Shown: piece by piece, positions 16,732 through 46,449 of the stretch
Position numbering within the stretch: position 1 is the stretch's first letter
How the letters are laid out: each line of letters starts with the position of its first letter
DNA from: a virus
Direction: 5' to 3' (one strand)
Virus record (IMG/VR): IMGVR_UViG_3300028392_000030
Span: 64,001 to 128,000 of that record
Length of the DNA stretch: 64,000 nt
Translations under genes and position numbers: made by a program
Notes under the pieces: generated by a model
Databases searched by the model: none
Told to the model about the DNA's origin: nothing
Seen by the model: the letters and a program-made list of their open reading frames with translations, nothing else

Positions 16732-17017
16732 TTTTATAAGCCAATGGGAACTGATTCTTGCCGACGTAAACAAAACTGATGTACCACTAGAGTGCATTAA
16801 AAAAGTTGTGATCAAGCTGGCCGGCGGCAAGCAGAAAACCATCAACGTGCATACACTACTTAAACAAGGTCTGGACCTAGAAGAAGTCGAAAGCATGCTG
16901 ACTCGCTACTTTGGTGAGAATGACCATAACATTCGAGATGTGGACTTTGTGATAGATGTCTCGGCTGTGGCCAATCTCGTTCAACCCGAAACTGATAAAT
17001 TACTTGGAAAACTCTAA
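16715..17017 (+). CDS. hypothetical phage protein
   Basis: ORF track; overlaps the upstream gene. Confidence 0.7.
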   Translation: MQHTDDFISQWELILADVNKTDVPLECIKKVVIKLAGGKQKTINVHTLLKQGLDLEEVESMLTRYFGENDHNIRDVDFVIDVSAVANLVQPETDKLLGKL

Positions 17018-18026
17018 CCAGTTGTCTACGGCCGAGCAGGCATTAAACACACATGTTGGCGCACATTCTAATAAAAAATGGGCCCAACTCTGTGTTAAAT
17101 CAATAGGACAAGATCGAATATTTGACAAGACCAAATGGAATTGGCCCGTTGATGTTGACTCTGTTACAGCAGAATTAAAAAAAGGCCCATTGGTCGTGTT
17201 GATGGCTCAGGATCCTTTTAACAATCACGAAGAAAATACTGCTAAACAACTGTCACAAATAACCGATGATTTTGTAATACTGTCAGGCAATGCCAAACAT
17301 TTTTTAAATCCAAAAAAACACATTTGCTATTTGCCCTATTGGTATCTGACGCAAAAATCAAGATTCAACCCGGTACCGGCCGACAGCTATCAAAAACAGT
17401 ATATCGTATCTTCGTTAAATGGCCAATCTAAATATCATCGCATCGAAAACTTTATCAAGTTGAGAGCTAAACCATACTTCAATAAAATACTGTTTACAAT
17501 GCACAACAACTTTGACCTAGAAAGATGCAAACTAGAAACACAGGAAGAATTTTGGAACAGCGACATAGTCAAACAGTTTGAATCGTTGCTAGACTCTGAA
17601 GAATTGCAACAGGGATATACCAACGATCATTCGGCCGTTCATCCGGCCTACAGCGATGCTTATGTGAATTATGTAACAGAAACATCTATTAGAACTAGTG
17701 AAATTTTTTGCAGTGAAAAAACATGGAAACCCGTTATGACTGGACAATTTGGTATCTGGTTATCAAATCCCGGTCATGTAGAGTTTTTAAGAGCCATCGG
17801 ATTGGATGTGTTTGATGATGTATTTGCGAGACATGCCTATGATAGTAAACCCAATTTGAATCAAAGAATAGATTCTATTCATACATTAATTGACAGCATT
17901 ATGTCAACGGATCTAACATCTATATACCAAGACACCCTAGGAAGAAGACAAGCCAATATAAACTTATTATACAGCGACGAGTTTGAAAATTTATTAACTA
18001 AACAATGTGAAGAGTATCAATTATGA
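16956..18026 (+). CDS. glycosyltransferase-like protein (ET...[ST]EKxxKP family), start uncertain
   Basis: YVTETS...CSEKTWKP...GLDVFDDVF...YD; paralog of 24317, 31569 and 37722. Confidence 0.5.
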   Translation: MSRLWPISFNPKLINYLENSNQLSTAEQALNTHVGAHSNKKWAQLCVKSIGQDRIFDKTKWNWPVDVDSVTAELKKGPLVVLMAQDPFNNHEENTAKQLSQITDDFVILSGNAKHFLNPKKHICYLPYWYLTQKSRFNPVPADSYQKQYIVSSLNGQSKYHRIENFIKLRAKPYFNKILFTMHNNFDLERCKLETQEEFWNSDIVKQFESLLDSEELQQGYTNDHSAVHPAYSDAYVNYVTETSIRTSEIFCSEKTWKPVMTGQFGIWLSNPGHVEFLRAIGLDVFDDVFARHAYDSKPNLNQRIDSIHTLIDSIMSTDLTSIYQDTLGRRQANINLLYSDEFENLLTKQCEEYQL

Positions 18027-18691
18027 AAGCGACCCTAGTTTCGTCCAGCCAACCTAGCGCAGAATTAGCAGCCCAGGGCATAGTCAATGCTCAAGAATTG
18101 GTTGCTTACTGCGCTAGGGTTAGCAATCCTGCCAATCAAACCAATACTGACACCAGCGAGAAGCTGATACGTTATCTTATCAAACATGCTCATTGGAGCC
18201 CACTTGAAATGGTTTCGGCCTGCATAGAAATTGAAACCACTAGAGATATTGCTAGACAGATCCTTAGACATCGTAGTTTCAGCTTCCAAGAGTTCAGTCA
18301 ACGATATGCTGTAGCAGATCTTGGGTTTGAGTTCAAAGAAACTCGCTTACAAGATACCAAGAACAGACAAAACAGTTTGGCCACAGATGATCCAGAATTG
18401 GATCAATGGTGGCAAGCACAACAGGGATTTGTTAGCACTCATATAAATATGATATACAACAAAGCCATTGAGCTGGGCATTGCCAAAGAACAAGCTAGAG
18501 CTATCTTACCCGAGGGTATCACTACCAGCAGACTTTATATGCAAGGTACACTACGTAGCTGGTTACACTATATTGAATTGCGATCTGGGCCGGAAACCCA
18601 AAAAGAACATAGACTGGTAGCTCAAGCCTGCGCCGCTGCTTTAGAAAGAATCTTTCCAATGGTTAAAGAATTCGTTGCAAACGATCAATAA
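18023..18691 (+). CDS. thyX: FAD-dependent thymidylate synthase ThyX
   Basis: AHWSPLE, RQILRHRSFSFQEFSQRY signature, TQKEHR. Confidence 0.95.
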   Translation: MKATLVSSSQPSAELAAQGIVNAQELVAYCARVSNPANQTNTDTSEKLIRYLIKHAHWSPLEMVSACIEIETTRDIARQILRHRSFSFQEFSQRYAVADLGFEFKETRLQDTKNRQNSLATDDPELDQWWQAQQGFVSTHINMIYNKAIELGIAKEQARAILPEGITTSRLYMQGTLRSWLHYIELRSGPETQKEHRLVAQACAAALERIFPMVKEFVANDQ

Positions 18692-18703
18692 ACCTGTTAT
18701 ACT
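18675..18703 (+). promoter_or_regulatory. sigma70-type promoter with extended -10
   Basis: TTGCAA (18675-18680), 17 bp, TGt-TATACT (18698-18703); ATG 6 nt later. Confidence 0.65.
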
Positions 18704-18709
18704 ACTAGT

Positions 18710-19183
18710 ATGATATTCAACCACATACGTAAACTCAAAGAAGATGGTAAGAAAATCGGTATCACCTTTTCTACCTTTGACATGCTCCACGCAGGCCACA
18801 TTGCCATGTTAGCCGAAGCTAAGAATCATTGCGATTATTTGATCTGTGGCTTGCAAACAGATCCTACAATTGATAGACCCGACACTAAGAACAAACCGGT
18901 TCAGAGTATTGTAGAACGACAAATTCAATTGGCTGCTTGTCGTTATGTAGATGAAGTAGTAGTGTATCAAACAGAACAAGACTTAGTTGACTTGTTGTTA
19001 ATACTTCCTTTAGACATACGAGTGCTAGGAGTGGAATATCAAGACAAAGAGTTCACTGGCAGAGAAGAATGTTATATGCGTAACATTGAACTGGTGTTTA
19101 ACGGCCGTGACCATAGTTTCAGTTCTAGCAGTCTACGTAAACGTGTAGTAGAAGCAGAAACTGTCAAGCTACTTAAACAATAG
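18710..19183 (+). CDS. cytidylyltransferase (TagD/RfaE-like, HIGH superfamily)
   Basis: TFSTFDMLHAGH, SIVER, VDEV, SFSSSSLR. Confidence 0.85.
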   Translation: MIFNHIRKLKEDGKKIGITFSTFDMLHAGHIAMLAEAKNHCDYLICGLQTDPTIDRPDTKNKPVQSIVERQIQLAACRYVDEVVVYQTEQDLVDLLLILPLDIRVLGVEYQDKEFTGREECYMRNIELVFNGRDHSFSSSSLRKRVVEAETVKLLKQ

Positions 19184-19184
19184 C

Positions 19185-19514
19185 ATGAGTTTGACTCAAC
19201 CCGACGAGGATAATAAGTTATTTCAAGCACCTGAATGGAAGTTGATTGATGGTAAAGTAGTAAAAATATCCGATGTTAAAGTCCACGAATTTAATATGGG
19301 CGATGTTGAAGATCCAGACTTATATGCCGCCCAACCCTTGTACGAATGGCAACAAAGCGAAGCTGGTAAGTGGGTAATGGAGAATGCTGTCGTAACTCCG
19401 TTCTGGCACCGTACGACAGATCTGTATAATTATGGATACAAATACTATGTCATTGCTCGTTTAAAAGAGCAAGATCAAACTTATTGGACATTAAAATGGC
19501 AAAAAAAATCTTAG
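19185..19514 (+). CDS. hypothetical phage protein with C-terminal W-x-L-K-W motif
   Basis: GDVEDPDLYAA; ends DQTYWTLKWQ. Confidence 0.7.
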   Translation: MSLTQPDEDNKLFQAPEWKLIDGKVVKISDVKVHEFNMGDVEDPDLYAAQPLYEWQQSEAGKWVMENAVVTPFWHRTTDLYNYGYKYYVIARLKEQDQTYWTLKWQKKS

Positions 19515-20461
19515 TAACCGGAGGCTTAGGCCTTATTGGACACAACATTGTTCAGCGTCTTGAAGCGCAAGGACACGAAGTCTATATAACAGATATAAAG
19601 ACCAACTACGGACTGGTTCCACAAGAGGAACTGGATTATTTGTTAGTGGAACGGCGTAAAAAGATCGCAACAACCAGAATTCATGCAGTCGACATTGCAG
19701 ATCGAGACGGTATTGATTGGTTAGTCAATCACTACAAGCCAGATACTATACTACATTTGGCCAGTTTCCCAAGACAGAAAGTAGTTAATGTAAATCCGCA
19801 GATAGGCAGTAGAACAATGAGTGAAGGCCTACTTAACCTGCTGGAAGCCGCAAAGAAACACGCAGTAGGTAAATTTGTCTACATCAGTAGTTCAATGGTG
19901 TATGGTGACTTTGATAATGATGTTACGGAAGACGCGGCATGTCGGCCACAAGGTCAGTATGGTATTATGAAATTAGCTGGAGAATGGTTGGTCAAAGACT
20001 ATGCTCGTAGAACCGACATGAGCTACATGATCATACGACCCAGTGCTGTTTACGGTCCGCTTGATGTGGAGGATCGTGTTATTAGCAAATTCATTCTTGC
20101 TGCCATGCGTGATGGAGTAATACGAGTAAACGGTGCAAATGAAACCCTGGACTTTACCTATGTGGATGATGCTGCTGATGGCATTGTTGCGGCCACCGTA
20201 AGTGAACATAAGAACAAAACATATAACATTACCAAGAGCCATTCCAAGACCCTGTTAGAAGCCGCTCAATTGGCTGTTAAAATTGTGGGTCAAGGTACAA
20301 TAGAAGTGCGTGACAAAGATGCAGACTTTCCTAGTCGTGGAGCATTAAACATCAATGCGGCACGACAAGACTTAGGATTCAACCCTAAGGTTGATATCGA
20401 CGAAGGATTTCAAATATACTACAAATGGCTTAAAAATAGCGTTTACTGGAGCAATAAATGA
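19496..20461 (+). CDS. NAD-dependent NDP-sugar epimerase/dehydratase (extended SDR)
   Basis: LVTGGLGLIG, HLAS, ISSSMVYG, YGIMK, VYGP, DFTYVDD. Confidence 0.9.
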   Translation: MAKKILVTGGLGLIGHNIVQRLEAQGHEVYITDIKTNYGLVPQEELDYLLVERRKKIATTRIHAVDIADRDGIDWLVNHYKPDTILHLASFPRQKVVNVNPQIGSRTMSEGLLNLLEAAKKHAVGKFVYISSSMVYGDFDNDVTEDAACRPQGQYGIMKLAGEWLVKDYARRTDMSYMIIRPSAVYGPLDVEDRVISKFILAAMRDGVIRVNGANETLDFTYVDDAADGIVAATVSEHKNKTYNITKSHSKTLLEAAQLAVKIVGQGTIEVRDKDADFPSRGALNINAARQDLGFNPKVDIDEGFQIYYKWLKNSVYWSNK

Positions 20462-21477
20462 TCAATTCAAACTTTGGATTTACACCTCTTCGTGAAGTAT
20501 GGCTAGGCGACTGTTACCCTGAATCGTATTACGATCATTTACCAAATGAAATTGCCGACCCATTTAGACAAATAACTGCATGGACCAAAGAAGATACCGG
20601 CCGGTTACAGACATTCTTAGAGTCCAGAGGAATTGTAGTCAGGCGCCCTGTGTTTGACAGCATAGATAATCATGTCACCGATAATGGTACTTTGTCAAAA
20701 CCGCCAGTGACTCCGAGAGATGATTATTTGGTGTTAGATAAAACTCTATATAGTTTACATAATAAATTAAAAATTGATCCATGGAATCATTGGCTAAACT
20801 ATTATAAAGAACAAGGATTTGATATAAAAAAACCCAAGCATAAACCTATAAATTGTTTGTCTCCGCCATCGCTAGTGCGACTAGGAAAAGATATAATTGT
20901 AGATGCCGACACTCATAAACATGTTTGGGGGTATGTTTGTGAATGTTTAGTCAGTCAGTTTGGACGTAAATATAGAGTTAATATATGCAACACTAACGGA
21001 CACAGTGATGGCGTTTTTTGTCCGGTTGCACCTGGATTGATTGCATCAACGCATTATAAAACTGATTATAGTCAAAGTTTTCCTGGGTGGGAAGTGTTTA
21101 AAATTCCCGAAACTTTAGGTAATTGGGGTCATCCAAAAAATTGGTTGGCCGACGATGCTGCCATAGACGGAAATAAAGCATTTGACCAACATCTACAAAC
21201 AACGGCAAAAGATTGGGTGGGTAATTTTAAAGAAACAGTATTTGAAGTTAATATGCTAGTGCTGGATGAAAAGAATGTTGTGGCCATGAAAGACTATCCT
21301 CCATTAACTCAGTGGCTAGACGAACGTGGTATTACTGTTCATTTTTTTGACCTACGAACTAGAAGTTTCTGGGATGGCGGGTGGCATTGCTTTACATTAG
21401 ATATACACAGAGAAGATACTCAAACAGATTTATTTCCTGAACGTGGTGAAAACGGTGTATATTGGAGGTTGAGTTGA
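20458..21477 (+). CDS. amidinotransferase-family protein, paralog 2
   Basis: PLREVWLG, TPRD, GHSDGVF, FEVNMLVLDEKNV, FWDGGWHCFT. Confidence 0.8.
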   Translation: MINSNFGFTPLREVWLGDCYPESYYDHLPNEIADPFRQITAWTKEDTGRLQTFLESRGIVVRRPVFDSIDNHVTDNGTLSKPPVTPRDDYLVLDKTLYSLHNKLKIDPWNHWLNYYKEQGFDIKKPKHKPINCLSPPSLVRLGKDIIVDADTHKHVWGYVCECLVSQFGRKYRVNICNTNGHSDGVFCPVAPGLIASTHYKTDYSQSFPGWEVFKIPETLGNWGHPKNWLADDAAIDGNKAFDQHLQTTAKDWVGNFKETVFEVNMLVLDEKNVVAMKDYPPLTQWLDERGITVHFFDLRTRSFWDGGWHCFTLDIHREDTQTDLFPERGENGVYWRLS

Positions 21478-22559
21478 ATGGCTTAAAGATTCCGTTCACT
21501 GGTCTCAAAAAGCAGTATAACACACTACGAACAGAAATACTGGATGTTACAGATGAAGTCCTGCGTAGTGGACAACTCATGCAGGGCAATTATACCGCTG
21601 AGTTTGAAGCGTGGTTGGCCAAACGAAATCATTCTAGTTATGCCGTAACTTGTCACTCAGGTAGTCAAGCATTAGAAATAATTGCTGAGTTTTATCGAGT
21701 CCAATCCAGTGTAAACCCACCCAGAGTAGTTGTTCCGTCAATGACCTATGTGGCCACGGCCAATGCATTTATACGTGCCGGGTGGGAAGTATACATTGCT
21801 GACACTGACTCGCACGGTATTTTAAACACGCAAAAGATACCACAGGATCTCAGTGTGCAGGCCACAGTGTTGGTTGGTCTATACGGTGCCGCAGTCAATG
21901 CCAATCAATTCTGGGCTACAGACCTTGTGATCGAAGATGGCGCCCAACATTGGCTCAGCAACAAGTGTGCTAGAATTGGTTCAGCCACAGCTATCAGTTT
22001 CGATCCAATGAAAAATCTCAATGCTTACGGCAATGGTGGTGCTGTGGTCACTGATGACCAAGCGTTAGCATGGTTTGCACGAGAGTGGATCAATAATGGC
22101 AAACCCGGACATGCCACGATAGGAACCAACAGTAGAATGAGTGAGACCGAGTGCGGCCAAATGATGGTCAAGACTCGTTACATAGATGCATGGCAACTGC
22201 GTCGTAAGACCATTGCGGCTTATTGGATAGAACGACTAAAGAAGTCCGGCATTAGAACACTAATCAATGACAGCAATTTTGAAACACATTGCTACCACAA
22301 GTTTGTTATCGATGTAGACAATCGTGACATCGTAGCACGTAACCTAGCCATCAAAGGTATCGAAACAAAGGTACATTACAAAGAGCCCTTGCACGAGTTG
22401 CCTGCTTATACTCGTTATCCCGGACCCGACCTGTTGAGTTCTGCCAGTGCCCTGGCACGTAGAGTATTGAGTTTGCCTATCTATCCCGAGCTAACGGATC
22501 TAGAAGTTGAATACGTTATTGATGCTGTGTTAGATTGCGCTTCAGCAAAGCATAGCTAG
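21474..22559 (+). CDS. DegT/DnrJ/EryC1/StrS-family PLP sugar aminotransferase
   Basis: SGSQAL, TYVATAN, IEDGAQ, SFDPMKNL (PLP lysine), GNGG, LSLPIYP. TTG 21474 follows a GGAGG SD. Confidence 0.9.
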   Translation: MNGLKIPFTGLKKQYNTLRTEILDVTDEVLRSGQLMQGNYTAEFEAWLAKRNHSSYAVTCHSGSQALEIIAEFYRVQSSVNPPRVVVPSMTYVATANAFIRAGWEVYIADTDSHGILNTQKIPQDLSVQATVLVGLYGAAVNANQFWATDLVIEDGAQHWLSNKCARIGSATAISFDPMKNLNAYGNGGAVVTDDQALAWFAREWINNGKPGHATIGTNSRMSETECGQMMVKTRYIDAWQLRRKTIAAYWIERLKKSGIRTLINDSNFETHCYHKFVIDVDNRDIVARNLAIKGIETKVHYKEPLHELPAYTRYPGPDLLSSASALARRVLSLPIYPELTDLEVEYVIDAVLDCASAKHS

Positions 22560-29157: not shown

Positions 29158-29255
29158 TTGTAGATAAATGGATCTCGTTTACGTAGTTCTTTTAGCTTTT
29201 TACGATAGCGTATTTCTAGACGAATTCGATTGTATAAGTTTTTGATCCAGTTCAT
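29154..29255 (-). CDS. 33-aa basic peptide coupled to the carbamoyltransferase (absent from the ORF track)
   Basis: MNWIKNLYNRIRLEIRYRKKLKELRKRDPFIYK; fills the gap exactly, with an ATGA overlap onto the carbamoyltransferase. Confidence 0.75.
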   Translation of the reverse strand: MNWIKNLYNRIRLEIRYRKKLKELRKRDPFIYK

Positions 29256-29256
29256 G

Positions 29257-38906: not shown

Positions 38907-39830
38907 TTATAATTGTTCTTTGAAATAATTAATGGTTTTGAGTAGCCCTTGGTCGAGATCAATCTCTGGGCGCCAACCCAATAAAGTGTTGGCTAAATTA
39001 ATGTCTGGCCGGCGTTGTTTAGGATCATCTGCGATAGGCGGCAAATGTATTATGCTACTCAAGGATTCTGTTAACTTGATTATTTTTTTAGCCATATCAA
39101 TCATTGTGTATTCACTAGGGTTGCCAATATTGACCGGACCTATTTCTCCTGAGTTCATTAGAGCTATTAGTCCTCTCACAGTGTCAGACACATAGCAAAA
39201 TGAACGAGTTTGCAATCCTTTGCCATAAACAGTTAAGTCCTGATTGGTCAATGCTTGCATAATAAAATTACTAATTACTCGGCCATCATTCTTTGACAAG
39301 TGTGGACCAAATGTATTGAATATCCTAGCAATTTTAATATCAACGTGGTGTTCTTTGTGATAGTTTATAAAAAGACTTTCAGCACAACGTTTGCCCTCGT
39401 CATAACAGCTCCTTATTCCTAAAGGATTTACATTTCCCCAATAATCCTCTGTTTGGGGCGATACCAGTGGATCTCCATAAACTTCGGAGGTGCTGGTTTG
39501 TAATATGCGAGCTCCGGTGTTGTGTGCCAATTTTAACATATTAATTGCACCTAACACACACGTCTGGATTGTATTAACTGGATCTTTTTGATACCACTTT
39601 GGGCTTGCCGGGCAGGCCAAATTATAAATTTGATCTACAGCAAGTGTTATGGGTTCTTTTACATCGTGTTTAATGAAATCAAATCTAGGATGGTCGCGCA
39701 GTAATTTAATATTGTCAAGACTGCTTGATAGTAAATTATCTAAACAATAAACAGTATGGTCCATTGCTAATAGTTCACGGCATAAATGACTTCCAATAAA
39801 CCCGCTACCACCAGTAACTAATATTTTCAT
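38907..39830 (-). CDS. UDP-glucuronate decarboxylase (UXS/ArnA-DH-like SDR)
   Basis: ILVTGGSGFIGSHL, YNLACPASP, TSTSEVYGDP, RSCYDEGKR, ARIFNTFGP, TRSFCYVSD, DDPKQRRPDI. Confidence 0.85.
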   Translation of the reverse strand: MKILVTGGSGFIGSHLCRELLAMDHTVYCLDNLLSSSLDNIKLLRDHPRFDFIKHDVKEPITLAVDQIYNLACPASPKWYQKDPVNTIQTCVLGAINMLKLAHNTGARILQTSTSEVYGDPLVSPQTEDYWGNVNPLGIRSCYDEGKRCAESLFINYHKEHHVDIKIARIFNTFGPHLSKNDGRVISNFIMQALTNQDLTVYGKGLQTRSFCYVSDTVRGLIALMNSGEIGPVNIGNPSEYTMIDMAKKIIKLTESLSSIIHLPPIADDPKQRRPDINLANTLLGWRPEIDLDQGLLKTINYFKEQL

Positions 39831-41239: not shown

Positions 41240-42332
41240 ATTCGTGATTTCGTAAAATGTTGTCAATGGCAAAAGATTTAAACGGCAATAATTTAAATAA
41301 TTTTTCGCCTCGTAAATTATCCAACAGCAATATGTGTGCAATGGTCTGTTGAAACAAAACTTGATTAATATTGTTGCTAATCAAATTTCTGATGTGCAAT
41401 ATTGTATTATTGTCAATGTTATGATTGTGTTCAAGTTGATCAACTTTATCCAAGGCCAATGATTTCAATGATTCAGGTATTACATCCAACGCCAGATAAT
41501 CTGGCCCTGTCAGTATAATCAAATTGATAGAGATATTATTTAATTTGGCATAATCGTACAAGTCGTTGATAAACCAAATATTTAAAATACTTAATACCGG
41601 ACTGAGAGTAACGTTAATATTTGAGTCGTGTGTGATTGTCAATAACTTTTGTAAATTTGAGTTTATTTTCTCCCAATTGGTTCCAGATCGAATATATTCC
41701 AATGGCTCGCCAACAGCATCTATACTGCACTGTATATTAACTTGTTTAAATTTTTTCCAGAGATCAATGATATTTTTATCTTTATATTTTATTGTAGTTA
41801 GATTGGTGTTATACATTAGTTCTATCTTGCTGGCTTGTCCGCTGTCAACCAGTTCGTCGAGCAATGCCCAGTGTTCGCTATTGATCAATGGTTCGCCGCC
41901 GGTAAAATACATCCATTGCAAGGAGCCAGTGAATAGTATGTCTTTGTAATTGGCCAGATCTTGATTTTCTATAATAGGAAATCTACCAAGCTCTTCAGCC
42001 CATTGGCTGCTAAAATGTGGCCCGCAATACCTACATTTTAAATTGCAAAGATTGGTATTCCTAATGTCAACAAATTGTAAGCCCGGAGCTGCTGTTACTT
42101 TTTTATTAAATCCATTTCTATAGCTGGATAATCCATGGTATTCTGCCACTGCACATTTATTACACGGGTGGTCTGGTGGGCAGTCTTGAGTTTTTAAATC
42201 TACGAATCTGTTTGGATTTGATAATTCAGATATGGGCTTGGAGTAACTGCTGTCAATTTGACAACAAGGACCAATTTTCCCATTGGGGAAAACGGTTACT
42301 CCGTGATCAATTGCCGCACAAGTCCAGGTCAC
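41232..42332 (-). CDS. radical SAM protein with N-terminal auxiliary Cys domain, AT-rich
   Basis: CNLKCRYC, FTGGEP, YNTN, CSIDA, YIRSG; upstream CAAI...PCC...CNKC. Confidence 0.9.
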   Translation of the reverse strand: MTWTCAAIDHGVTVFPNGKIGPCCQIDSSYSKPISELSNPNRFVDLKTQDCPPDHPCNKCAVAEYHGLSSYRNGFNKKVTAAPGLQFVDIRNTNLCNLKCRYCGPHFSSQWAEELGRFPIIENQDLANYKDILFTGSLQWMYFTGGEPLINSEHWALLDELVDSGQASKIELMYNTNLTTIKYKDKNIIDLWKKFKQVNIQCSIDAVGEPLEYIRSGTNWEKINSNLQKLLTITHDSNINVTLSPVLSILNIWFINDLYDYAKLNNISINLIILTGPDYLALDVIPESLKSLALDKVDQLEHNHNIDNNTILHIRNLISNNINQVLFQQTIAHILLLDNLRGEKLFKLLPFKSFAIDNILRNHEYE

Positions 42333-43009
42333 GACACAAACTCACTTGCCAAGTCGACAATAGGAGCATTCGGACCAACGTCGTTGAACATGTTCCAGGC
42401 AAACTCAAAGTTGGCATTTTTAATATAAAAGTTTTGCATGTGTTTTTGATAATGAATTGTATACACTTCTTTAGCTTCTTGTAAAAATTTTATTTTTAGA
42501 TAATCTTCGATTAATTTAAAATTGTCAATTACAGACTTAAAATCTAAACACAATACATTACAGTGCTGATTATTTCTACCAGACTCAGTATAATAGTTTA
42601 GGTTATAATCAATCCAATCCCATGCCGATAAAATACTAGCAATTGAAATTTCTGTTGTGTTTGTATTATTTACTAACCATTGTCTTTGTATTCCATAATA
42701 TTCATCGGCAGGATTACAATCTAACATGATACATTGACTATCAGGAAATTTATATGAGATTAATTCCGAGTTTAAACAATGCAATTGTATAATGTCGCTT
42801 GGCGTTATTTCTTTTGTGAACTTAATGGGATTATTTTTAGTTATTGTGCAATCGATACTCTCCAGTGGCCAATTGACCACATGAAACGTATTGTTTTTTG
42901 GCAATTTGACACGACCGGTCCTCGACGACTCAATCGCTGACGCTAAAGCGTTTCCGAATGTTCCTCCGAGATAAGATAATACAATACTTCCAGGAAAACT
43001 GTAAAACAT
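42329..43009 (-). CDS. hypothetical protein, AT-rich, N-terminal Gly-rich loop (YLGGTFG)
   Basis: TAATG overlap at 43009; loosely like 3630-4313. Confidence 0.65.
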   Translation of the reverse strand: MFYSFPGSIVLSYLGGTFGNALASAIESSRTGRVKLPKNNTFHVVNWPLESIDCTITKNNPIKFTKEITPSDIIQLHCLNSELISYKFPDSQCIMLDCNPADEYYGIQRQWLVNNTNTTEISIASILSAWDWIDYNLNYYTESGRNNQHCNVLCLDFKSVIDNFKLIEDYLKIKFLQEAKEVYTIHYQKHMQNFYIKNANFEFAWNMFNDVGPNAPIVDLASEFVS

Positions 43010-43941
43010 TACCAACCTTCTTGCTGTCTGATTACATCCATTTCGCGGGTCATGACTCCGCGATTGTGCCAGTTACTACGATAGTGTTGTTTGAAAAATG
43101 CACTTTCGTTTTCTTGCATCATATTAACGGGCAGGTCTAATTGTGCGATCAGGTCTTCTGCAACACGGCCGGCTAACAGCTCTGGATCTGAATCTTTTAC
43201 TGTGTTCCAGAGTTGTTCTAGTTCAGCAAAGTCTTGCACCACACGATGATCCCATGTGGGAGTAATCATGGTCATGTAGGTGCCCATACGGCTGCCGGCT
43301 ATGGCCCAGATACCGTGTTCAACATCGCGGCCAACGTTATGCCATATGGTCAAGTGATCAAGGTTGCGTTGATGCACACGGTCACGGAATTCACTCACAG
43401 TGGGTCTAGTGCCACGATTCAAACACATCTTGACTCCTTCTCGGAATCCGGCACGCCAGGCATGGAATGCTGACCCATTGGGGTATGTGGTTGAATAGCA
43501 GTCATACATGGGCCAATATAAGGGATCAAAACAAAACTCCACTTCGGTTTCTGCTGAGCCGTTGGTGGCTTCGTGCGTTTTCATATTGTTTACAAATGCA
43601 CGAGTCCAGCTACTAAGTCCTCCGTTGCCATACATCAAGCCATTGACATGATTACGTGCTCGCCAGCGGAATACGGCATTTTCCCATTCACTGTCAGGAA
43701 ACTGCATTGTGAGGTTAAAGAATTTTGCATCTGGCATATTGTCGCCGTCGATTAGGATAAAGCGTTCAGTGTCACTGGCAGCAGCTGCGGCCTTGTGTGC
43801 GGCGTCCGACCCTTTAACTCCGTCTACTCGTTTGGCCCAAGGAATCATATTGCGTATCTTTACCCAAAATTCTTCCTTTTGCGGTTCGTCATATGTCAAG
43901 TAAATGCAGTCTAAATCTGCTATATCAATTTGTTTGGTCAT
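43009..43941 (-). CDS. glycosyltransferase-like (GT-A-like, DxD) protein
   Basis: DCIYLTYDEP, GVKGSDAAHKAAA, FILIDGDN, AWRAGFREG. Confidence 0.55.
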   Translation of the reverse strand: MTKQIDIADLDCIYLTYDEPQKEEFWVKIRNMIPWAKRVDGVKGSDAAHKAAAAASDTERFILIDGDNMPDAKFFNLTMQFPDSEWENAVFRWRARNHVNGLMYGNGGLSSWTRAFVNNMKTHEATNGSAETEVEFCFDPLYWPMYDCYSTTYPNGSAFHAWRAGFREGVKMCLNRGTRPTVSEFRDRVHQRNLDHLTIWHNVGRDVEHGIWAIAGSRMGTYMTMITPTWDHRVVQDFAELEQLWNTVKDSDPELLAGRVAEDLIAQLDLPVNMMQENESAFFKQHYRSNWHNRGVMTREMDVIRQQEGW

Positions 43942-44296
43942 GTGGTGGGTCCTGATGTTTTAAACTCCATTTGGTGTGCGGCTGATCCGTGTCCACTACT
44001 ACACAAACATTCCTAGGATCGCAGGCCTGTCCGTATCCCACAGGCACTATTTTTTTGGCAAAATTGGTTTGATATACTACCAATTTTCCATTCAATACTC
44101 TGATGTGTTTAGGACTGTTAAGGTATGTTTCTTGATCAACAACTATGTAATTACCAGGCAACTGCTCCATACTGAAAAATAACGGAAATCCGTTTTCATC
44201 ATAGTATAATCGATACTCCGGAGCACCGTGAACAGCAGACACTTGGCTTTGCCATATACTGAAAAATTCCTCTTCAGTCATTGGGGTTGTCATCAT
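43925..44296 (-). CDS. hypothetical phage protein
   Basis: YRLYYDENG motif; in the coupled operon. Confidence 0.7.
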   Translation of the reverse strand: MMTTPMTEEEFFSIWQSQVSAVHGAPEYRLYYDENGFPLFFSMEQLPGNYIVVDQETYLNSPKHIRVLNGKLVVYQTNFAKKIVPVGYGQACDPRNVCVVVDTDQPHTKWSLKHQDPPHDQTN

Positions 44297-44549
44297 CGAC
44301 CTTTTGATTGTTACGTTTTTCTTGAATAGTTAACTTATCTTTATGTGTCTTACGAGGGTTTCCACATAGGTAACATTCAGGATTACCACAATCCATTGCG
44401 TGATGTTTGGCCAGACGGTGTGGTTCTGCTACTATAGGATCGTTTTTTGTGAGTCCGTGTGCCTTGGCTATTTTAATTTGTTTTTTTATAGCGTTTTCAT
44501 CTTTTAATAACCGTTTGCTATGTTTGATTTTATCTTCGTCTCGGCTCAT
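44274..44549 (-). CDS. small basic Cys/His protein
   Basis: HHAMDCGNPECYLCGNPRK; GGAGG SD and ATGA overlap at 44549. Confidence 0.75.
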   Translation of the reverse strand: MSRDEDKIKHSKRLLKDENAIKKQIKIAKAHGLTKNDPIVAEPHRLAKHHAMDCGNPECYLCGNPRKTHKDKLTIQEKRNNQKVDDDNPND

Positions 44550-45319
44550 GCTATCCTCCAATCCTTAATGTAATAATGGACAAATCCTGATTGTGCTACA
44601 GTATGTATCCTAAGCCCTGGATCAGTTGCTTCCCAAACTAGTTCTTGAGTCCAATCTTCTGTTAGAGTAGGTATAATATATCTTTTCATATGAGTAATCA
44701 TGGGGCCCATTCCTTTGGGTAGCGTAACGTTTTCTACGCCAATGATCGTTGCAGCCATGGCATAGACCACATCTGTTGTTGCCTGCTCGTCTGGAAATTT
44801 TAGTAAGGTTTTAAACAGATTCCAATTTTCAAATATGTTTCTTACTAAATCAAAAAACTCTTTGGCACGGGCACTGAGTCTCCAATATGTAACAGCGTTA
44901 TACACATCTGGTAAAGCATTGACATCAAATAGTTTACGATAGGTTCTATTATCACTGGGCTGATTGGTTAAATCTTTACATCCTTGACTAATCACAACAT
45001 CACGTTTTTCAAACAAGGTCCACCAATGGTCTATAGGCGTGGCCACCAACATATCAGCTTCTAATTTAATAGTTTGCCTATATGGACTAGCGGCAAAACA
45101 TTGCCAGTCGTTGGCAAAGCCACCTAGGTCACCATGTGGCAAAGGAACTACATGATCAAACACTGGATCGTCGCATCGCTTGACTGTAATCACAGCAATA
45201 TTGGCATCAGGATGCCACTGGCGAATTGACCCGGCAAGTTGTCGAGCACAAGCCAAATAGTCCACTGATTCTGTATCAATGGCCGGTATCAGATAACCGC
45301 GTTCAGCAAGGATTGGCAA
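44546..45319 (-). CDS. nucleotide-diphospho-sugar transferase-like (GT-A) protein
   Basis: RGYLI, SPYRQTIKLEADM, YNAVTYW, TDVVYAMA; paralog of 45303-46112. Confidence 0.55.
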   Translation of the reverse strand: MPILAERGYLIPAIDTESVDYLACARQLAGSIRQWHPDANIAVITVKRCDDPVFDHVVPLPHGDLGGFANDWQCFAASPYRQTIKLEADMLVATPIDHWWTLFEKRDVVISQGCKDLTNQPSDNRTYRKLFDVNALPDVYNAVTYWRLSARAKEFFDLVRNIFENWNLFKTLLKFPDEQATTDVVYAMAATIIGVENVTLPKGMGPMITHMKRYIIPTLTEDWTQELVWEATDPGLRIHTVAQSGFVHYYIKDWRIA

Positions 45320-46112
45320 CTATTGCTCCTAATGCTTGTTTGCCCATGGCATGAAAGTCTTGCTGTTTTAACACAATCCATCTAGGTTTATCGTCGCCAG
45401 TGATATATTGTATTTTATATGTGTCTGGTCCAAGCTGAGTCAACGTAGCGTTGGCCGTAATACTGGCCAAATTCCATGGAATAGATGGTGTGCTTAATGT
45501 ATGACCGTCAACAATATTCATAGCAATACTTAATGCAAAATCATTACGGAATGTATTTTCACTCACACTGTATAATTGTCTGTAATGTGTCCAATTATCT
45601 CTAATCATTTGCATGGTATCAAATATCATTTGGGCTTTTTTACTTCGACGAAAACACATGACTGTGGCCCAACTCATTGGCATCTTGTATGTGCCAAACC
45701 AATTGTTATCGTGAAACGCAGTAAACCCAGTGACATCATATGCTATACGATGTGCAATAAAATCTTGATTAATATCAAATAATCTTTTTAACTGATCGGA
45801 TGCAACAACAAAGTCAGCGTCTAGCACCAATGTATGATCCCATGGGCTTAGGTCATGCACACTGGATCTATTTGTATTATGCCAAGTGGCACTGACTTTA
45901 TAATCGTAAAAATATCTATGTTGCTGTGTCAGTTGAGGTTCGGTTAAAACAACCTGGTCAAAATCAGCGGTGCGGGCAGTATCTGTTACGTCGGTAATTA
46001 CGCAAACTGGCAAATCTAAATGCCTGCGAATATTACTAGCTGACCAAGCGGCCATGGCCAGATAATCAATCCGCTCATTATTAAACGCAAATATTGTTAC
46101 ACCACGAGTCAT
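45303..46112 (-). CDS. nucleotide-diphospho-sugar transferase-like (GT-A) protein
   Basis: RGVTI, SPWDHTLVLDADF (DxD), WATVMCF, RNDFALSIA. Confidence 0.6.
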   Translation of the reverse strand: MTRGVTIFAFNNERIDYLAMAAWSASNIRRHLDLPVCVITDVTDTARTADFDQVVLTEPQLTQQHRYFYDYKVSATWHNTNRSSVHDLSPWDHTLVLDADFVVASDQLKRLFDINQDFIAHRIAYDVTGFTAFHDNNWFGTYKMPMSWATVMCFRRSKKAQMIFDTMQMIRDNWTHYRQLYSVSENTFRNDFALSIAMNIVDGHTLSTPSIPWNLASITANATLTQLGPDTYKIQYITGDDKPRWIVLKQQDFHAMGKQALGAIVANPC

Positions 46113-46414
46113 CTTTTTTGATTCAACTCTTCATATTCTACTAACCAAGCATTCATCTGTTCTTGCCAGCGTTGTTGACTTAATGTCATTAGTTCTCTAG
46201 TATCAACTTTAACAGGGGTTTCATATAAGTCTAGCAATACTGCTTCTATGCCAGGGCAGGTCAATAATGTATTTTGTAATTCTGGTCCTGCTCGCCACAT
46301 GCCACCAGCATAAGTAAAAGTTAATTTGGCTTGATATTTTTCTTTGAGGGTAATGCGAGCTTGGTGATGGTCAAAGCGAGCACGGCTGTGGGAAATAAGT
46401 TCATCGGTATTCAT
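46109..46414 (-). CDS. hypothetical phage protein, first gene of the ~18.7 kb minus-strand operon
   Basis: ORF track; ATG 6 nt after a TATAAT box. Confidence 0.75.
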   Translation of the reverse strand: MNTDELISHSRARFDHHQARITLKEKYQAKLTFTYAGGMWRAGPELQNTLLTCPGIEAVLLDLYETPVKVDTRELMTLSQQRWQEQMNAWLVEYEELNQKR

Positions 46415-46420
46415 AGATTT

Positions 46421-46449
46421 ATTATACTACAAAAAGCAGATAAGGTAAA
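46421..46449 (-). promoter_or_regulatory. sigma70-type promoter heading the minus-strand modification operon
   Basis: TTTACC (46449-46444), 17 bp, TATAAT (46426-46421), 6 nt, ATG. Confidence 0.7.

What the first reader, a model, noticed from the sequence alone, without database searches (positions are those of the whole stretch)
16956..46414. ~29-kb phage-encoded cluster for a heavily modified sugar/glycan: amidino-, amino-, carbamoyl-, sulfo-transferases plus a radical SAM array
Seen: two tightly coupled blocks converge at 27.7 kb: a mostly plus-strand block (15.8-27.7 kb, with one minus-strand gene at 22.5-24.3 kb) and a minus-strand operon (46.4-27.7 kb). Together they encode a cytidylyltransferase, two NDP-sugar SDRs, a DegT aminotransferase, two amidinotransferases, a NodU/TobZ carbamoyltransferase, seven radical SAM enzymes, an SGNH hydrolase, a sulfotransferase-like protein and about eight GT-like proteins. 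The cluster abuts the tail/baseplate genes. Established: DegT plus amidinotransferase builds guanidino groups in streptidine (StsC/StrB1), and NodU/TobZ enzymes O-carbamoylate sugars. Inference: the phage makes its own unusual glycan to decorate the virion, its DNA or the host surface. I know of no characterised phage pathway with this combination.
Basis: partly seen in the sequence, partly recalled or inferred. Interest (0 to 1): 0.9.

Follow-up and report, generated by a model that had tools for sequence, protein, structure and literature searches.

The report
Jumbo-phage radical-SAM sugar-tailoring gene island
An uncultured giant lake phage carries, beside its tail-fibre genes, about 30 kb of soluble sugar-building, sugar-transferring, radical SAM, amidino- and carbamoyl-adding enzymes; hundreds of related phages keep them in the same order, and they probably build an unusual sugar decoration whose product and target nobody has tested.

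Summary
The window lies in a 197-kb fragment of a T4-like jumbo phage, with a Gp23 capsid gene, a baseplate wedge gene and a 4.8k-residue virion protein.

Window 15.7-46.4 kb encodes:
- two NDP-hexose dehydratase-like SDRs, a DegT aminotransferase and a small nucleotidyltransferase;
- two amidinotransferase-like proteins (Cys and His kept, Asp not);
- a NodU-type carbamoyltransferase coupled to an invariant 33-residue peptide;
- seven N-terminal-twitch radical SAM enzymes (NF033640; 11 in the 197 kb);
- about eight glycosyltransferase-like proteins.

No protein has a membrane helix. The core gene order recurs in 316-572 viral contigs. A minimal version sits in the cultured Ralstonia phage RsoM2USA.

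My best reading (about 0.5) is a phage-made, heavily edited amino/guanidino/carbamoyl sugar chain put on a cytoplasmic acceptor, most plausibly a virion fibre protein. The product and target are unproven. The operon has its own sigma-70-like promoter behind a hairpin, so it is not an extension of the late fibre operon.

DNA glycosylation is unlikely. ThyX is an ordinary thymidylate synthase, and ThyA takes the same place in relatives.

This scan has already found the same module in at least eight other phage genomes. Published genome papers list parts of it without a function.

The parts
15693..15717 (+). Terminator-like hairpin marking the left edge of the plus-strand block
   Evidence: 10-bp stem followed by a T run. 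Sequence read.
15976..16731 (+). u251, a conserved unknown protein at the outer end of the block
   Evidence: phrog_15894, E 4.7e-14. It sits at the same end of the block in relatives.
16956..18026 (+). X1a, an accessory paralogue of the X1 family (possible GT10-like transferase)
   Evidence: Its C-terminal ~100 residues match X1b and X1d. It has no orthologue in the 80 carbamoyltransferase-anchored loci.
18023..18691 (+). ThyX thymidylate synthase; a neighbour, probably not a pathway enzyme
   Evidence: PF02511, E 8e-42. ThyA takes the same place next to SDR1 in relative L039.
18710..19183 (+). Small nucleotidyltransferase (sugar-phosphate or glycerol-phosphate activating type); accessory
   Evidence: PF01467, E 2.4e-12. 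rfaE domain II E 2e-22 and glycerol-3-P cytidylyltransferase E 3.5e-16, both below cut-off. Absent from relatives.
19185..19514 (+). u109, a conserved small unknown protein next to SDR1
   Evidence: Present in 30 of 80 loci, always beside SDR1. No Pfam match.
19484..20461 (+). SDR1, an NDP-hexose 4,6-dehydratase/epimerase-like enzyme (core)
   Evidence: PF01370, E 1e-45. TIGR01181 E 4e-37, below cut-off. Found in 47 of 80 loci.
20458..21477 (+). AmT1, an amidinotransferase-like protein (accessory paralogue)
   Evidence: PDB AGAT 2jdx, E 2.6e-8. Paralogue of AmT2, E 1.6e-38.
21462..22559 (+). DegT-family sugar aminotransferase (core)
   Evidence: PF01041, E 2.4e-54. Best NCBIfam matches are PseC and 4-amino-4,6-dideoxyhexose transaminases.
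22516..24318 (-). u600, a multi-domain GT-A-fold protein with four FDxSWHPD-like motifs (core; 534-1262 residues in relatives)
   Evidence: AlphaFold model, pLDDT 89.5. Foldseek matches K4CP, LH3 and Mimivirus R699. VIA Z 10-11.5 to B4GALNT1, WrtF, SpsA and STIV A197 for residues ~370-512, with a second domain at 164-330. More than 5000 metagenomic relatives, none annotated.
24317..25435 (+). X1b, the core member of the X1 family (possible GT10-like transferase); its start shares CATG with u600
   Evidence: ESM Atlas lead to GT10, score 0.79 only. HLTEKTFK motif. No PDB or Pfam match. CATG read.
25378..26451 (+). AmT2, an amidinotransferase-like protein conserved in about a third of relatives
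   Evidence: AGAT E 6.1e-17 in three segments, with His (GHGD) and Cys (GGISC) aligned. The Asp254 equivalent is not conserved. 29 of 80 loci, at about 79% identity.
26382..27695 (+). rS1, an N-terminal-twitch radical SAM enzyme (accessory)
   Evidence: PF04055, E 1.9e-12. NF033640 at 224.7 bits, above the 170-bit cut-off.
27679..29157 (-). NodU/CmcH/TobZ-type carbamoyltransferase (core anchor)
   Evidence: PF16861 E 5.9e-49 and PF02543 E 1.5e-33. Relatives in 316 viral contigs.
29154..29255 (-). 33-residue basic micropeptide ending in DPFIYK, ATGA-coupled to the carbamoyltransferase
   Evidence: Read and conserved in relatives. 213 representative clusters, almost all free-standing at 30-75 residues. 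A distant member is again coupled to a carbamoyltransferase. An unannotated copy lies in RsoM2USA.
29257..30336 (-). u359, a core unknown protein: cyclophilin-like barrel with a four-helix insert
   Evidence: Model pLDDT 87. VIA Z about 9 to cyclophilins, which is borderline. BFVD matches only uncharacterised phage proteins.
30290..31585 (-). rS2, an N_Twi radical SAM enzyme (core)
   Evidence: SPASM match at the N-terminus plus a Radical_SAM match. NF033640 at 288.7 bits. 71 of 80 loci, at about 70% identity.
31569..32489 (-). X1c, an X1-family paralogue in a variable slot
   Evidence: Paralogy. Present in some relatives between rS3 and rS2.
32486..33718 (-). rS3, an N_Twi radical SAM enzyme (core)
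   Evidence: NF033640 at 344.4 bits.
33715..35043 (-). rS4, an N_Twi radical SAM enzyme (core)
   Evidence: NF033640 E 6.9e-121, 404 bits against a 170-bit cut-off.
35040..36371 (-). rS5, an N_Twi radical SAM enzyme (core; 51% identical orthologue in RsoM2USA)
   Evidence: NF033640 E 2.3e-87. RsoM2USA match.
36368..37129 (-). SGNH-hydrolase-like protein (accessory)
   Evidence: DUF6071 E 0.0012, below cut-off. GCS and DxxHP motifs read. SGNH-like genes also sit in the RsoM2USA module.
37126..37725 (-). Sulfotransferase-like protein (accessory; motif-level only)
   Evidence: YRTGST P-loop-like motif. No HMM match.
37722..38906 (-). X1d, an X1-family member (near-core, between rS6 and rS5)
   Evidence: 69 of 80 loci.
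38907..39863 (-). SDR2, an NDP-sugar dehydratase/decarboxylase-like enzyme (accessory)
   Evidence: PF01370, E 1.6e-48. TIGR01181 E 6e-41 and UDP-xylose-synthase-like E 2.8e-27.
39827..41341 (-). rS6, an N_Twi radical SAM enzyme (core; 34% identical orthologue in RsoM2USA beside its fibre genes)
   Evidence: NF033640 at 293.8 bits..
41232..42332 (-). rS7, an N_Twi radical SAM enzyme (accessory, in a variable slot)
   Evidence: PF04055, E 5.7e-12. NF033640 at 247 bits.
42329..43015 (-). u228, an accessory unknown protein
   Evidence: No match in any library. Absent from relatives.
43009..43941 (-). u310, a GT-A-like protein with a DGD motif (core; 75-95% identical in relatives)
   Evidence: Homologous to the u600 C-terminal GT-A domain, E 2e-8. 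Relatives in 572 viral contigs. 42% identical to RsoM2USA ORF350.
43925..44561 (-). u123 and u95, small unknown proteins; u123 is conserved in 80 of 80 loci and u95 is found in 30 of 80
   Evidence: u123 in 80 of 80 loci, u95 in 30 of 80.
44546..46112 (-). u257 and u269, paralogous proteins with a DxD-like motif (possible GT-A/GT8-like); core
   Evidence: Paralogy. LVLDADFV and KLEADMLV motifs read. 80 of 80 loci. Present in RsoM2USA. No HMM match.
46109..46414 (-). u101, the first gene of the enzyme operon
   Evidence: 79 of 80 loci.
46421..46466 (-). GC-rich hairpin followed by a TTTACC-17-TATAAT promoter-like site, 6 nt before the u101 ATG
   Evidence: The hairpin occurs in 50 of 59 distinct relatives and the promoter-like site in 51 of 59. 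The stems vary by compensatory changes.
46489..47466 (-). u325, a Ser/Thr-rich fibre-like protein and candidate glycan acceptor
   Evidence: S+T is 33.8%, against 14.3% for the genome. 78 of 80 loci.
47556..48845 (-). Tail-fibre-like protein, with an ATAAATA late-promoter-like motif upstream
   Evidence: PHROG matches to virion and tail-fibre proteins. Weak Peptidase_G2 match at the C-terminus. Motif located.
49680..63998 (-). Giant virion structural protein (4817 residues in the genome), followed by the baseplate wedge gene
   Evidence: phrog_10938, E 1.3e-284. The next gene matches phrog_10646 (baseplate wedge), E 2.7e-278.
4577..6094 (+). rS0, an extra N_Twi radical SAM paralogue outside the cluster
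7747..8748 (+). AmT0, a third amidinotransferase-like paralogue outside the cluster
   Evidence: phrog_25854, shared with AmT1. Alignment.

Best explanation
This is a phage-encoded, entirely soluble pathway that builds and tailors a sugar chain.

Inferred steps:
1. SDR1 turns a host NDP-hexose into an NDP-4-keto-6-deoxyhexose.
2. DegT aminates that intermediate.
3. Amidinotransferase-like enzymes and the carbamoyltransferase, with its 33-residue partner peptide, add guanidino or carbamoyl groups.
4. Several GT-A-type transferases (u310, u600, u257, u269), and possibly the GT10-like X1 proteins, assemble a sugar chain on an acceptor in the cytoplasm.
5. The N-terminal-twitch radical SAM enzymes (five core, two extra here) edit the sugars by radical chemistry, for example alcohol oxidation ahead of amination as BtrN does, epimerisation or deoxygenation.

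The most plausible acceptor is a virion surface protein encoded next door: the Ser/Thr-rich fibre-like protein, the tail fibre or the giant baseplate protein.

Shown here: the enzyme families, the folds, the co-conservation and the operon structure. Inferred: the order of steps, the radical SAM reactions, the product and the acceptor.
For: Enzyme families are established. GT-A folds are shown in u600, and u310 is homologous to one of them and keeps DGD.

No cluster protein has a predicted membrane helix. This points to a cytoplasmic acceptor rather than a lipid-linked export route.

Twenty-one genes run with overlapping or abutting ends.

The core gene order is conserved. It runs from the giant protein through the fibre genes, u101, u269, u257, u123, u310, rS6, X1d, rS5, rS4, rS3, rS2, u359, the peptide and the carbamoyltransferase, then X1b, u600, DegT and SDR1. 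It recurs in 80 of 80 loci sampled from each of 572 and 316 viral contigs. Fixed junctions alternate with variable slots that hold extra tailoring genes.

The cultured phage RsoM2USA keeps a minimal version directly after its fibre genes.

The neighbouring fibre-like protein is 34% Ser+Thr.

Some bacterial NF033640 genes sit with GT4 glycosyltransferases.
Against: No product, acceptor or radical SAM reaction is known.

The enzyme operon starts behind a conserved hairpin with its own sigma-70-like promoter. It is not simply co-transcribed with the late fibre genes.

Related families (11 NF033640 genes, 7 X1-like proteins, 4 SDRs) are scattered over the genome, some between gp47- and gp46-like genes. 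The radical SAM enzymes therefore need not all serve one glycan.

Most bacterial NF033640 genes have no conserved neighbours.

Several GT calls rest on weak evidence. The amidinotransferase-like proteins lack the AGAT Asp254 equivalent.

Only one sugar-activating enzyme is present, and it is accessory.
Confidence: 0.5

Rival explanations
1. Host-surface remodelling. The enzymes make modified NDP-sugars and add them to host lipid-linked O-antigen or capsule units during infection. This would block superinfection or keep progeny from sticking to cell debris.
For: The authors of PMC7029224 favour this reading for glycosyltransferases in pelagimyophage host recognition clusters. The sigma-70-like promoter would allow early expression. 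O-antigen glycosyltransferases are usually soluble or peripheral.
Against: None of the roughly 32 proteins is a flippase, polymerase, ligase, Gtr-type or polyprenyl-phosphate transferase, or has any membrane helix. The module stays locked to the fibre genes across hundreds of phages whose hosts probably differ.
Confidence: 0.17
2. A peptide or small-molecule product. The 33-residue peptide, or another small conserved protein, is a ribosomal precursor that the twitch-domain radical SAM enzymes cross-link and the transferases glycosylate and carbamoylate. Alternatively the cluster makes a free aminoglycoside-like guanidino sugar that acts on the host or on competitors.
For: SPASM/twitch radical SAM enzymes are typically peptide maturases (family names). 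The peptide's C-terminus is invariant and its pairing with the carbamoyltransferase holds in distant contigs. u600 resembles the S-glycosyltransferases SunS and ThuS, Z 9.3-9.9. The combination of DegT, amidinotransferase, carbamoyltransferase and a twitch radical SAM enzyme mirrors aminoglycoside logic (established knowledge of StsC, StrB1, TobZ and BtrN). The authors of PMC12801897 call similar cyanophage genes 'antibiotic synthesis genes'.
Against: The peptide has no Cys and no variable core. It is translationally coupled to the carbamoyltransferase alone, which looks more like a subunit. The cluster has no protease or exporter. It also lacks a cyclitol synthase.
Confidence: 0.15
3. Protein maturation unrelated to sugars. 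The radical SAM array modifies virion proteins directly, for example by cross-links, epimerisation or formylglycine-type oxidation. The sugar genes are a separate, merely adjacent function.
For: NF033640 paralogues occur outside the sugar cluster, including between gp47- and gp46-like genes. Most bacterial members have no sugar-related neighbours.
Against: The radical SAM genes interleave with X1 and SDR genes, and their ends overlap in one operon. That order is conserved.
Confidence: 0.1
4. DNA hypermodification. The glycan or cationic groups are attached to phage DNA bases to evade restriction or help packaging.
For: ThyX lies inside the cluster. Phage glycosyltransferases are known to glycosylate hydroxymethylated bases (Pyle et al. 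2024, as cited in PMC12619734).
Against: The 197-kb fragment has no ThyA-like hydroxymethylase. Three relatives that are 97-100% complete have a single canonical ThyA, E about 1e-106. That ThyA occupies ThyX's place, so the gene is an ordinary thymidylate synthase. The module sits with fibre genes, not replication genes.
Confidence: 0.05

Closest known systems
Host recognition cluster of pelagimyophages and cyanomyophages (PMC7029224); Pelagibacter phage Mosig EXVC030M annotation (MT647606)
   Same: It is an island beside the giant VrlC-type baseplate protein and the tail-fibre genes of T4-like aquatic phages. It holds glycosyltransferases, radical SAM cassettes, a DegT aminotransferase, an epimerase and a Nol-like carbamoyltransferase.
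   Different: Those islands are described as hypervariable and have only been annotated. Here a long core keeps its order in hundreds of contigs, with 7 NF033640 enzymes (11 in the fragment). The u600, u359, X1 and u310 families and the 33-residue peptide are additional. Mosig's radical SAM genes did not match ours by tblastn.
NCBIfam NF033640, N_Twi_rSAM (twitch domain-containing radical SAM protein)
   Same: All seven cluster enzymes score above the curated cut-off. Each has an N-terminal Cys-rich domain and a CxxxCxxC motif.
   Different: I found no paper assigning the family a reaction. Bacterial members are mostly single genes without conserved neighbours. Here they form an array.
Virus-encoded virion glycosylation: mycobacteriophage capsid and tail-tube glycans (Freeman et al. 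2023, cited in PMC12619734) and chlorovirus/mimivirus glycan machinery (Mimivirus R699, STIV A197 structures)
   Same: The virus carries its own soluble glycosyltransferases and sugar-nucleotide tailoring enzymes. u600 matches multi-domain GT-A enzymes, including R699 and A197.
   Different: None of those systems is known to use radical SAM arrays, amidinotransferases or a peptide-coupled carbamoyltransferase. Glycosylation of this phage's virion is untested.
Aminoglycoside and guanidino-cyclitol logic (StsC/StrB1 of streptomycin, BtrN of butirosin, TobZ of tobramycin; SxtG/SxtI of saxitoxin)
   Same: The enzyme families are the same: a DegT aminotransferase, AGAT/StrB1/SxtG-like amidinotransferases, a NodU/TobZ carbamoyltransferase and a twitch-type radical SAM enzyme.
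   Different: There is no cyclitol synthase. The twitch domain is N-terminal. The AGAT Asp254 equivalent is absent. Many glycosyltransferases are present, and the setting is a phage structural region.
Ralstonia jumbo phage RsoM2USA (MG752970; PMC8504454)
   Same: It is the only cultured phage in the collection with homologues of u310 and the u600 domain, and the only one with clear orthologues of rS5 and rS6 (two Vibrio phages give weak radical SAM matches). It also has a 46% identical carbamoyltransferase and the micropeptide, and the same order from giant protein through fibre genes to u101, u269, u257, u310 and rS6.
   Different: It is a minimal version split over two loci, with 2 radical SAM enzymes. 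I found no DegT, amidinotransferase, X1 or u359 homologue in the two stretches searched. All these genes are annotated as hypothetical.

Membership tests
NF033640 N_Twi_rSAM | Score above the curated whole-protein cut-off (170 bits) | tested here: met
   rS4 404 bits and rS5 294 bits. All seven cluster genes score 225-404 bits, and 11 genes in the 197-kb record pass.
NF033640 N_Twi_rSAM | CxxxCxxC radical SAM motif, with the Cys-rich twitch/SPASM domain N-terminal to it | tested here: met
   Invariant C153, C157 and C160, with upstream C39, C99 and C102, in the eight-paralogue alignment. PF13186 matches at residues 8-100, ahead of PF04055.
NF033640 N_Twi_rSAM | Reductive SAM cleavage and a defined substrate | not testable with these tools
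   I found no reaction described for the family.
NodU/CmcH/TobZ carbamoyltransferase | Both Pfam domains (Carbam_trans_N and Carbam_trans_C) above gathering score | tested here: met
   117 and 166 bits, against cut-offs of 24 and 27.
NodU/CmcH/TobZ carbamoyltransferase | Equivalence to NodU itself (NF041651 cut-off, 1000 bits) | tested here: not met
   138 bits only. It is a family member, not a NodU orthologue.
Amidinotransferase (AGAT/StrB1/SxtG) | Significant sequence similarity over the fold | tested here: met
   AmT2 against AGAT, E 6.1e-17 in three segments; StrB1 1.1e-11; SxtG 1.8e-10. AmT1 against AGAT, 2.6e-8. Pfam gives no match.
Amidinotransferase (AGAT/StrB1/SxtG) | Catalytic Cys (AGAT Cys407) and His (His303) | tested here: met
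   GGISC aligns to GGFHC and GHGD to MHID. Both residues are invariant in the three paralogues.
Amidinotransferase (AGAT/StrB1/SxtG) | Catalytic Asp (AGAT Asp254) | tested here: not met
   By my count, the position just before the aligned segment is Ser in AmT2. None of the three paralogues has an acidic residue there. The alignment edge is uncertain.
DegT/DnrJ/EryC1 sugar aminotransferase | Full-length Pfam match above cut-off | tested here: met
   185 bits, covering 3-359 of 360 profile positions.
NDP-sugar 4,6-dehydratase (extended SDR) | Extended-SDR fold match, and equivalog-level match to a named dehydratase | tested here: inconclusive
   PF01370 and PF16363 match strongly. TIGR01181 scores 128 and 140 bits, against a cut-off of 365.
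GT-A fold glycosyltransferase (u600, u310) | GT-A Rossmann-like fold | tested here: met
   Z 10-11.5, rmsd about 3 A over 130-140 residues, to B4GALNT1, WrtF, SpsA and A197. Two-domain matches to K4CP, LH3 and R699. Nucleotidyltransferases with the same fold score Z 9-10 as well.
GT-A fold glycosyltransferase (u600, u310) | DxD metal and nucleotide-sugar motif | tested here: inconclusive
   u310 has DGD. The aligned position in the u600 C-terminal domain reads AKL. The u600 middle domain has CDY.
GT10 fucosyltransferase-like (X1a-d) | Match to PF00852 or a solved GT10 structure | tested here: not met
   No Pfam match at E up to 10. The profile found nothing in the PDB. Only an ESM Atlas feature lead (0.79) and an xTEK motif support it. 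I do not file X1 as GT10.
Sulfotransferase (37126-37725) | Match to a sulfotransferase profile | tested here: not met
   No family in Pfam, PHROGs or NCBIfam. Only a PAPS-loop-like YRTGST motif was read by eye.
SGNH hydrolase (36368-37129) | Profile match, plus block I Ser and block V DxxH | tested here: inconclusive
   DUF6071 E 0.0012, 18.9 bits against a cut-off of 27. NGCS and DNIHP motifs are present.
Host recognition cluster of T4-like aquatic myophages | Located beside the giant VrlC-type baseplate protein and tail-fibre genes, and carrying glycosyltransferases and radical SAM cassettes | tested here: met
   The far boundary (neck protein gp14) was not checked.

The most novel reading that the evidence does not exclude
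The N-terminal-twitch radical SAM enzymes are a new class of carbohydrate- or glycopeptide-editing enzymes. Working in series with GT-A transferases, amidinotransferase-like enzymes and a peptide-dependent carbamoyltransferase, they would give a widespread clade of freshwater jumbo phages a hypermodified cationic glycoconjugate on the tail apparatus. That would be a virus-made surface chemistry with no characterised counterpart, and it would control adsorption or host range.
Probability: 0.3. Interest if true: 0.9.

Novelty: new variant of a known kind. Interest (0 to 1): 0.7.

Why it matters
Phage-encoded glycosylation of virions is known from only a few systems, and none of them uses radical SAM chemistry. 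Here a very common group of uncultured freshwater jumbo phages spends about 10% of its genome on such enzymes. More than 5000 protein clusters exist for single members of the module.

Working out the product would do three things:
- assign a first reaction to a catalogued but unstudied radical SAM family (NF033640);
- explain a recurrent 'dark' island beside the tail-fibre genes of aquatic T4-like phages;
- possibly reveal a new way in which phages tune adsorption, host range or resistance to host defences.

A cultured relative, RsoM2USA, carries a minimal version, so the question can be tested at the bench.

Tried and rejected
- Megablast of the flank against GenBank phages found nothing. There are no tRNAs and no Rfam families in the window.
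- Profile searches of u359, u600 and the X1 family against PDB sequences gave only noise. Foldseek of u359 against the PDB found nothing. Its cyclophilin-like match by VIA (Z about 9) is borderline.
- ESM Atlas gave no usable lead for u359.
- Pfam at E up to 10 gave nothing for the GT8-like, X1, sulfotransferase-like and u228 proteins.
- The T4 late promoter TATAAATA is not enriched in the window. The shorter ATAAATA is enriched upstream of structural genes but not upstream of the enzyme operon.
- The first genome-contig scan, with a single radical SAM protein, found no relative, and an eight-paralogue alignment was too divergent to search with. The second scan found 311 relatives. The top five loci are phage contigs binned into MAGs, and the true bacterial loci share no neighbourhood, so bacterial context did not reveal a substrate.
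- I recalled that the micropeptide might be SxtK/DUF5989-like. Pfam gave no match, so I dropped the idea.
- I considered and rejected ThyX as a hydroxymethylase for DNA modification.
- Literature searches for 'N-terminal twitch' and for jumbo phage plus radical SAM plus glycosyltransferase returned nothing. The 'moraphage' paper (PMC12619734) mentions glycosyltransferases, but none of radical SAM, carbamoyl or RsoM2USA occurs in its text.

Full report
**What the window is.** The window is bases 64001-128000 of a single 197,025-bp record. IMG/VR classes the record as a virus, and CheckV rates it 57% complete. It encodes a T4-type major capsid protein (PF07068, E 2e-98). To the right of the finding lie a tail-fibre-like protein and a giant virion structural protein of 4817 residues (phrog_10938, E 1e-284). 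Next come a baseplate wedge subunit (E 3e-278) and a gp5-like hub protein. The contig is therefore a phage, probably about 345 kb when whole. Near-complete relatives measure 338-357 kb.

**Check of the observation.** All the ORFs exist as described.

*Well supported.* The matches cover:
- a cytidylyltransferase-like protein, two extended SDRs, a DegT aminotransferase and a two-domain carbamoyltransferase;
- seven radical SAM proteins.

The two candidate amidinotransferases have no Pfam match. They do match human arginine:glycine amidinotransferase, StrB1, HsvA and SxtG in the PDB, at E 2.6e-8 and 6.1e-17.

*Radical SAM enzymes.* All-against-all BLAST shows one paralogous family: seven members in the cluster and one more at 4577-6094. 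All score above the curated cut-off of NCBIfam NF033640, 'twitch domain-containing radical SAM protein'. In that family the auxiliary Cys-rich domain precedes the CxxxCxxC core. The 197-kb record holds 11 such genes above the cut-off; 14 control genomes hold none.

*Weaker claims.* The SGNH and sulfotransferase calls rest on motifs and one sub-threshold match.

*The 'about eight GT-like proteins'.* Support for these is uneven:
- The 600-residue protein folds with high confidence (pLDDT 89.5) into at least two GT-A domains. Foldseek matches the two-domain enzymes K4CP, LH3 and Mimivirus R699. VIA-align gives Z 10-11.5 to B4GALNT1, WrtF, SpsA and STIV A197.
- The 310-residue protein is homologous to the C-terminal domain of that protein and keeps a DGD motif.
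- The 257/269-residue pair shows only a DxD-like motif.
- The four 'X1' paralogues have only a weak GT10 lead and fail a direct Pfam test.

*Shared properties.* None of the cluster proteins has a predicted membrane helix. From 46414 down to 27679, 21 genes follow each other with gaps of +1 nt or less.

**Conservation.** A scan of IMG/VR with the carbamoyltransferase found 316 contigs; a scan with the 310-residue GT-A protein found 572. In the 160 loci fetched, the gene order is essentially fixed. On one strand it runs:
- giant protein, 205-residue structural protein, tail fibre, Ser/Thr-rich fibre-like protein;
- u101, u269, u257, (u95), u123, u310;
- [variable slot], rS6, X1d, rS5, rS4, rS3, (X1c), rS2, u359, carbamoyltransferase.

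On the other strand come (AmT2), X1b, u600, DegT, SDR1, u109, a thymidylate synthase and u251.

Some junctions are fixed: rS5 to rS4 (median 0 nt), rS2 to u359 (about 50 nt) and u359 to the carbamoyltransferase (about 110 nt). Others are slots that take up to 5-7 kb of extra genes.

The genes particular to this phage sit in or beside such slots. They are X1a, the nucleotidyltransferase, AmT1, rS1, the SGNH-like and sulfotransferase-like proteins, SDR2, rS7 and u228. The island is thus a conserved core plus swappable tailoring cassettes. Single members are very abundant in metagenomes: more than 5000 clusters at 90% identity each for u600 and rS4, none with an informative name.

**Cultured relatives and prior mentions.** In GenBank phages, u310 and u600 match only Ralstonia jumbo phage RsoM2USA.

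*RsoM2USA.* This 343.8-kb phage has the same layout after its giant protein and fibre genes: u101, u269, u257, one ORF, u310, an rS6-like radical SAM gene and a GT-A protein (ORF354-348). A second locus holds an rS5 orthologue (51% identity), SGNH-like genes and a 46% identical carbamoyltransferase. All of these are annotated as hypothetical. The paper describing the phage does not discuss them (PMC8504454).

*Other phages.*
- Nol-like carbamoyltransferases are common in cyanomyophages and pelagimyophages (140 records).
- In Pelagibacter phage Mosig the carbamoyltransferase lies beside MoaA-like radical SAM genes and a DegT aminotransferase, close to VrlC.
- The pelagimyophage paper describes a 'host recognition cluster' with glycosyltransferases and radical SAM cassettes, and favours modification of the host O-chain (PMC7029224).
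- The S-SCSM2R paper lists an aminotransferase, a radical SAM 'maturase' and an inosamine amidinotransferase as unexplained 'antibiotic synthesis genes' (PMC12801897).

So parts of this island have been seen and named, but none has been characterised.

*Earlier work in this scan.* The scan has reported the same module in at least eight other phage genomes, with the same reading.

**New anatomical points.**

*(1) A 33-residue gene.* It lies between u359 and the carbamoyltransferase and shares an ATGA overlap with the latter. Its consensus is MNWxKxLWxRIxLEIRYRKKLKELRKRDPFIYK, and the last 20 residues are almost invariant.
- A profile search of 1.84 billion representatives found 213 clusters. 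Almost all are free-standing peptides of 30-75 residues that end at the motif.
- A distant member is again coupled to a carbamoyltransferase, in a contig that also carries an asparagine synthase and a DegT gene.
- RsoM2USA has an unannotated copy.
- I read it as a partner of the carbamoyltransferase. A substrate role is not excluded.

*(2) The junction before the enzyme operon.* The gap between the fibre-like gene and u101 holds a GC-rich hairpin. The hairpin is followed directly by TTTACC-17-TATAAT, which ends 6 nt before the ATG.
- Among 59 distinct relatives, 50 keep a perfect hairpin, with stems that differ by compensatory changes.
- 51 of the 59 keep the promoter-like site.
- The enzyme operon is therefore its own transcription unit, with a sigma-70-like promoter and almost no leader.
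- By contrast, the ATAAATA late-type motif sits upstream of the tail fibre, the baseplate wedge and other structural genes.

*(3) Interlocked genes.* u600 and X1b start back to back in a shared CATG. u600 also overlaps the end of DegT by 44 nt. The lone minus-strand gene is thus locked inside the plus-strand block with no room for a promoter.

*(4) Thymidylate synthase.* ThyX is replaced by a canonical ThyA at the same position next to SDR1 in relative L039. Three near-complete relatives have only that one ThyA-family gene.

**Mechanism.**

*Shown.* The families present can convert an NDP-hexose into an NDP-4-keto-6-deoxy sugar (SDR) and then into a 4-amino sugar (DegT). The best family matches are 4,6-dehydratases and 4-aminotransferases. 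Several GT-A-type transferases are available, and everything is soluble.

*Inferred.*
- The amidinotransferase-like proteins convert an amine to a guanidine. The Cys and His are kept, but by my count the AGAT Asp254 equivalent is Ser, Pro or Ala, so this step is uncertain.
- The carbamoyltransferase and its peptide add a carbamoyl group.
- The radical SAM enzymes edit sugar carbons. By analogy with BtrN, a twitch-domain radical SAM dehydrogenase could make the keto groups that an aminotransferase then aminates. This is established knowledge of the butirosin pathway, not something tested here.

*The acceptor.* It is unknown. I favour a virion protein for three reasons:
- the module is locked to the fibre and baseplate genes in every relative, including RsoM2USA;
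- the adjacent fibre-like protein is 34% Ser+Thr, against 14% genome-wide;
- no lipid-linked or export machinery is present.

*Against that reading.*
- The operon has its own early-type promoter.
- Paralogues of the same families are scattered over the genome. Two radical SAM genes sit beside the gp47- and gp46-like genes.
- Bacterial NF033640 genes have no conserved neighbourhood.

**Verdict.** The module is a new variant of virus-encoded glycan machinery, with an unprecedented radical SAM component. Its parts have been noted in genome papers and found repeatedly in this scan, and its chemistry and target remain open.

Noticed in passing
window 29154-29255 (-): An unannotated 33-residue basic peptide gene ending in DPFIYK, ATGA-coupled to the carbamoyltransferase. 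The family has 213 representative clusters, almost all free-standing. A copy lies unannotated in RsoM2USA (L169, about 14010-14125).
   Followed up: yes
window 46421-46466 (-): A conserved GC hairpin with compensatory stem changes, followed directly by a TTTACC-17-TATAAT site that ends 6 nt before the first ATG of the operon. This suggests a terminator and promoter junction and a nearly leaderless first gene. Several other genes in this genome also have TATAAT 4-11 nt before their start.
   Followed up: partly
window 24316-24319 and 22516-22559: The divergent genes u600 (-) and X1b (+) share their start codons in one CATG, and u600 overlaps the 3' end of DegT by 44 nt. The two strands form interlocked operons with no intergenic promoter space, and the arrangement is conserved in relatives.
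   Followed up: partly
window 18023-18691; L039:17873-18778: ThyX here is replaced by a canonical ThyA at the same position next to SDR1 in a complete relative. This is a non-orthologous swap of thymidylate synthases at a fixed locus.
   Followed up: yes
G000 141472-145277 (L082:13472-17277): Two further NF033640 radical SAM genes sit around the gp47-like (Metallophos) gene and just before the gp46-like (SMC/AAA_23) recombination gene. This is far from any sugar gene.
   Followed up: partly
window 2467-3555 and 9861-11150: A MoxR/CobS-like AAA ATPase (phrog_1297) and a DUF2201 metallopeptidase/VWA protein (phrog_1314) form a CobS/CobT-like pair of the kind seen in cyanophages. They flank the extra radical SAM and amidinotransferase-like paralogues.
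   Followed up: no
L172-L175 (genome contigs): Contigs filed under MAGs named Legionellales, Haliscomenobacter and Verrucomicrobia TMED56 carry the full phage module, including fibre genes. They are phage contigs binned into bacterial MAGs, not bacterial copies.
   Followed up: partly
window 22516-24318 (-) and its orthologues in L001-L080: Orthologues of the multi-GT-A protein range from 534 to 1262 residues, apparently by gain of extra domains. All carry repeated FDxSWHPD-like motifs.
   Followed up: partly
window 16715-17017 (+): A 100-residue ORF with protein-like sequence bridges the apparent 224-nt gap between u251 and X1a and overlaps the called X1a start. The true X1a start may lie further downstream.
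   Followed up: no
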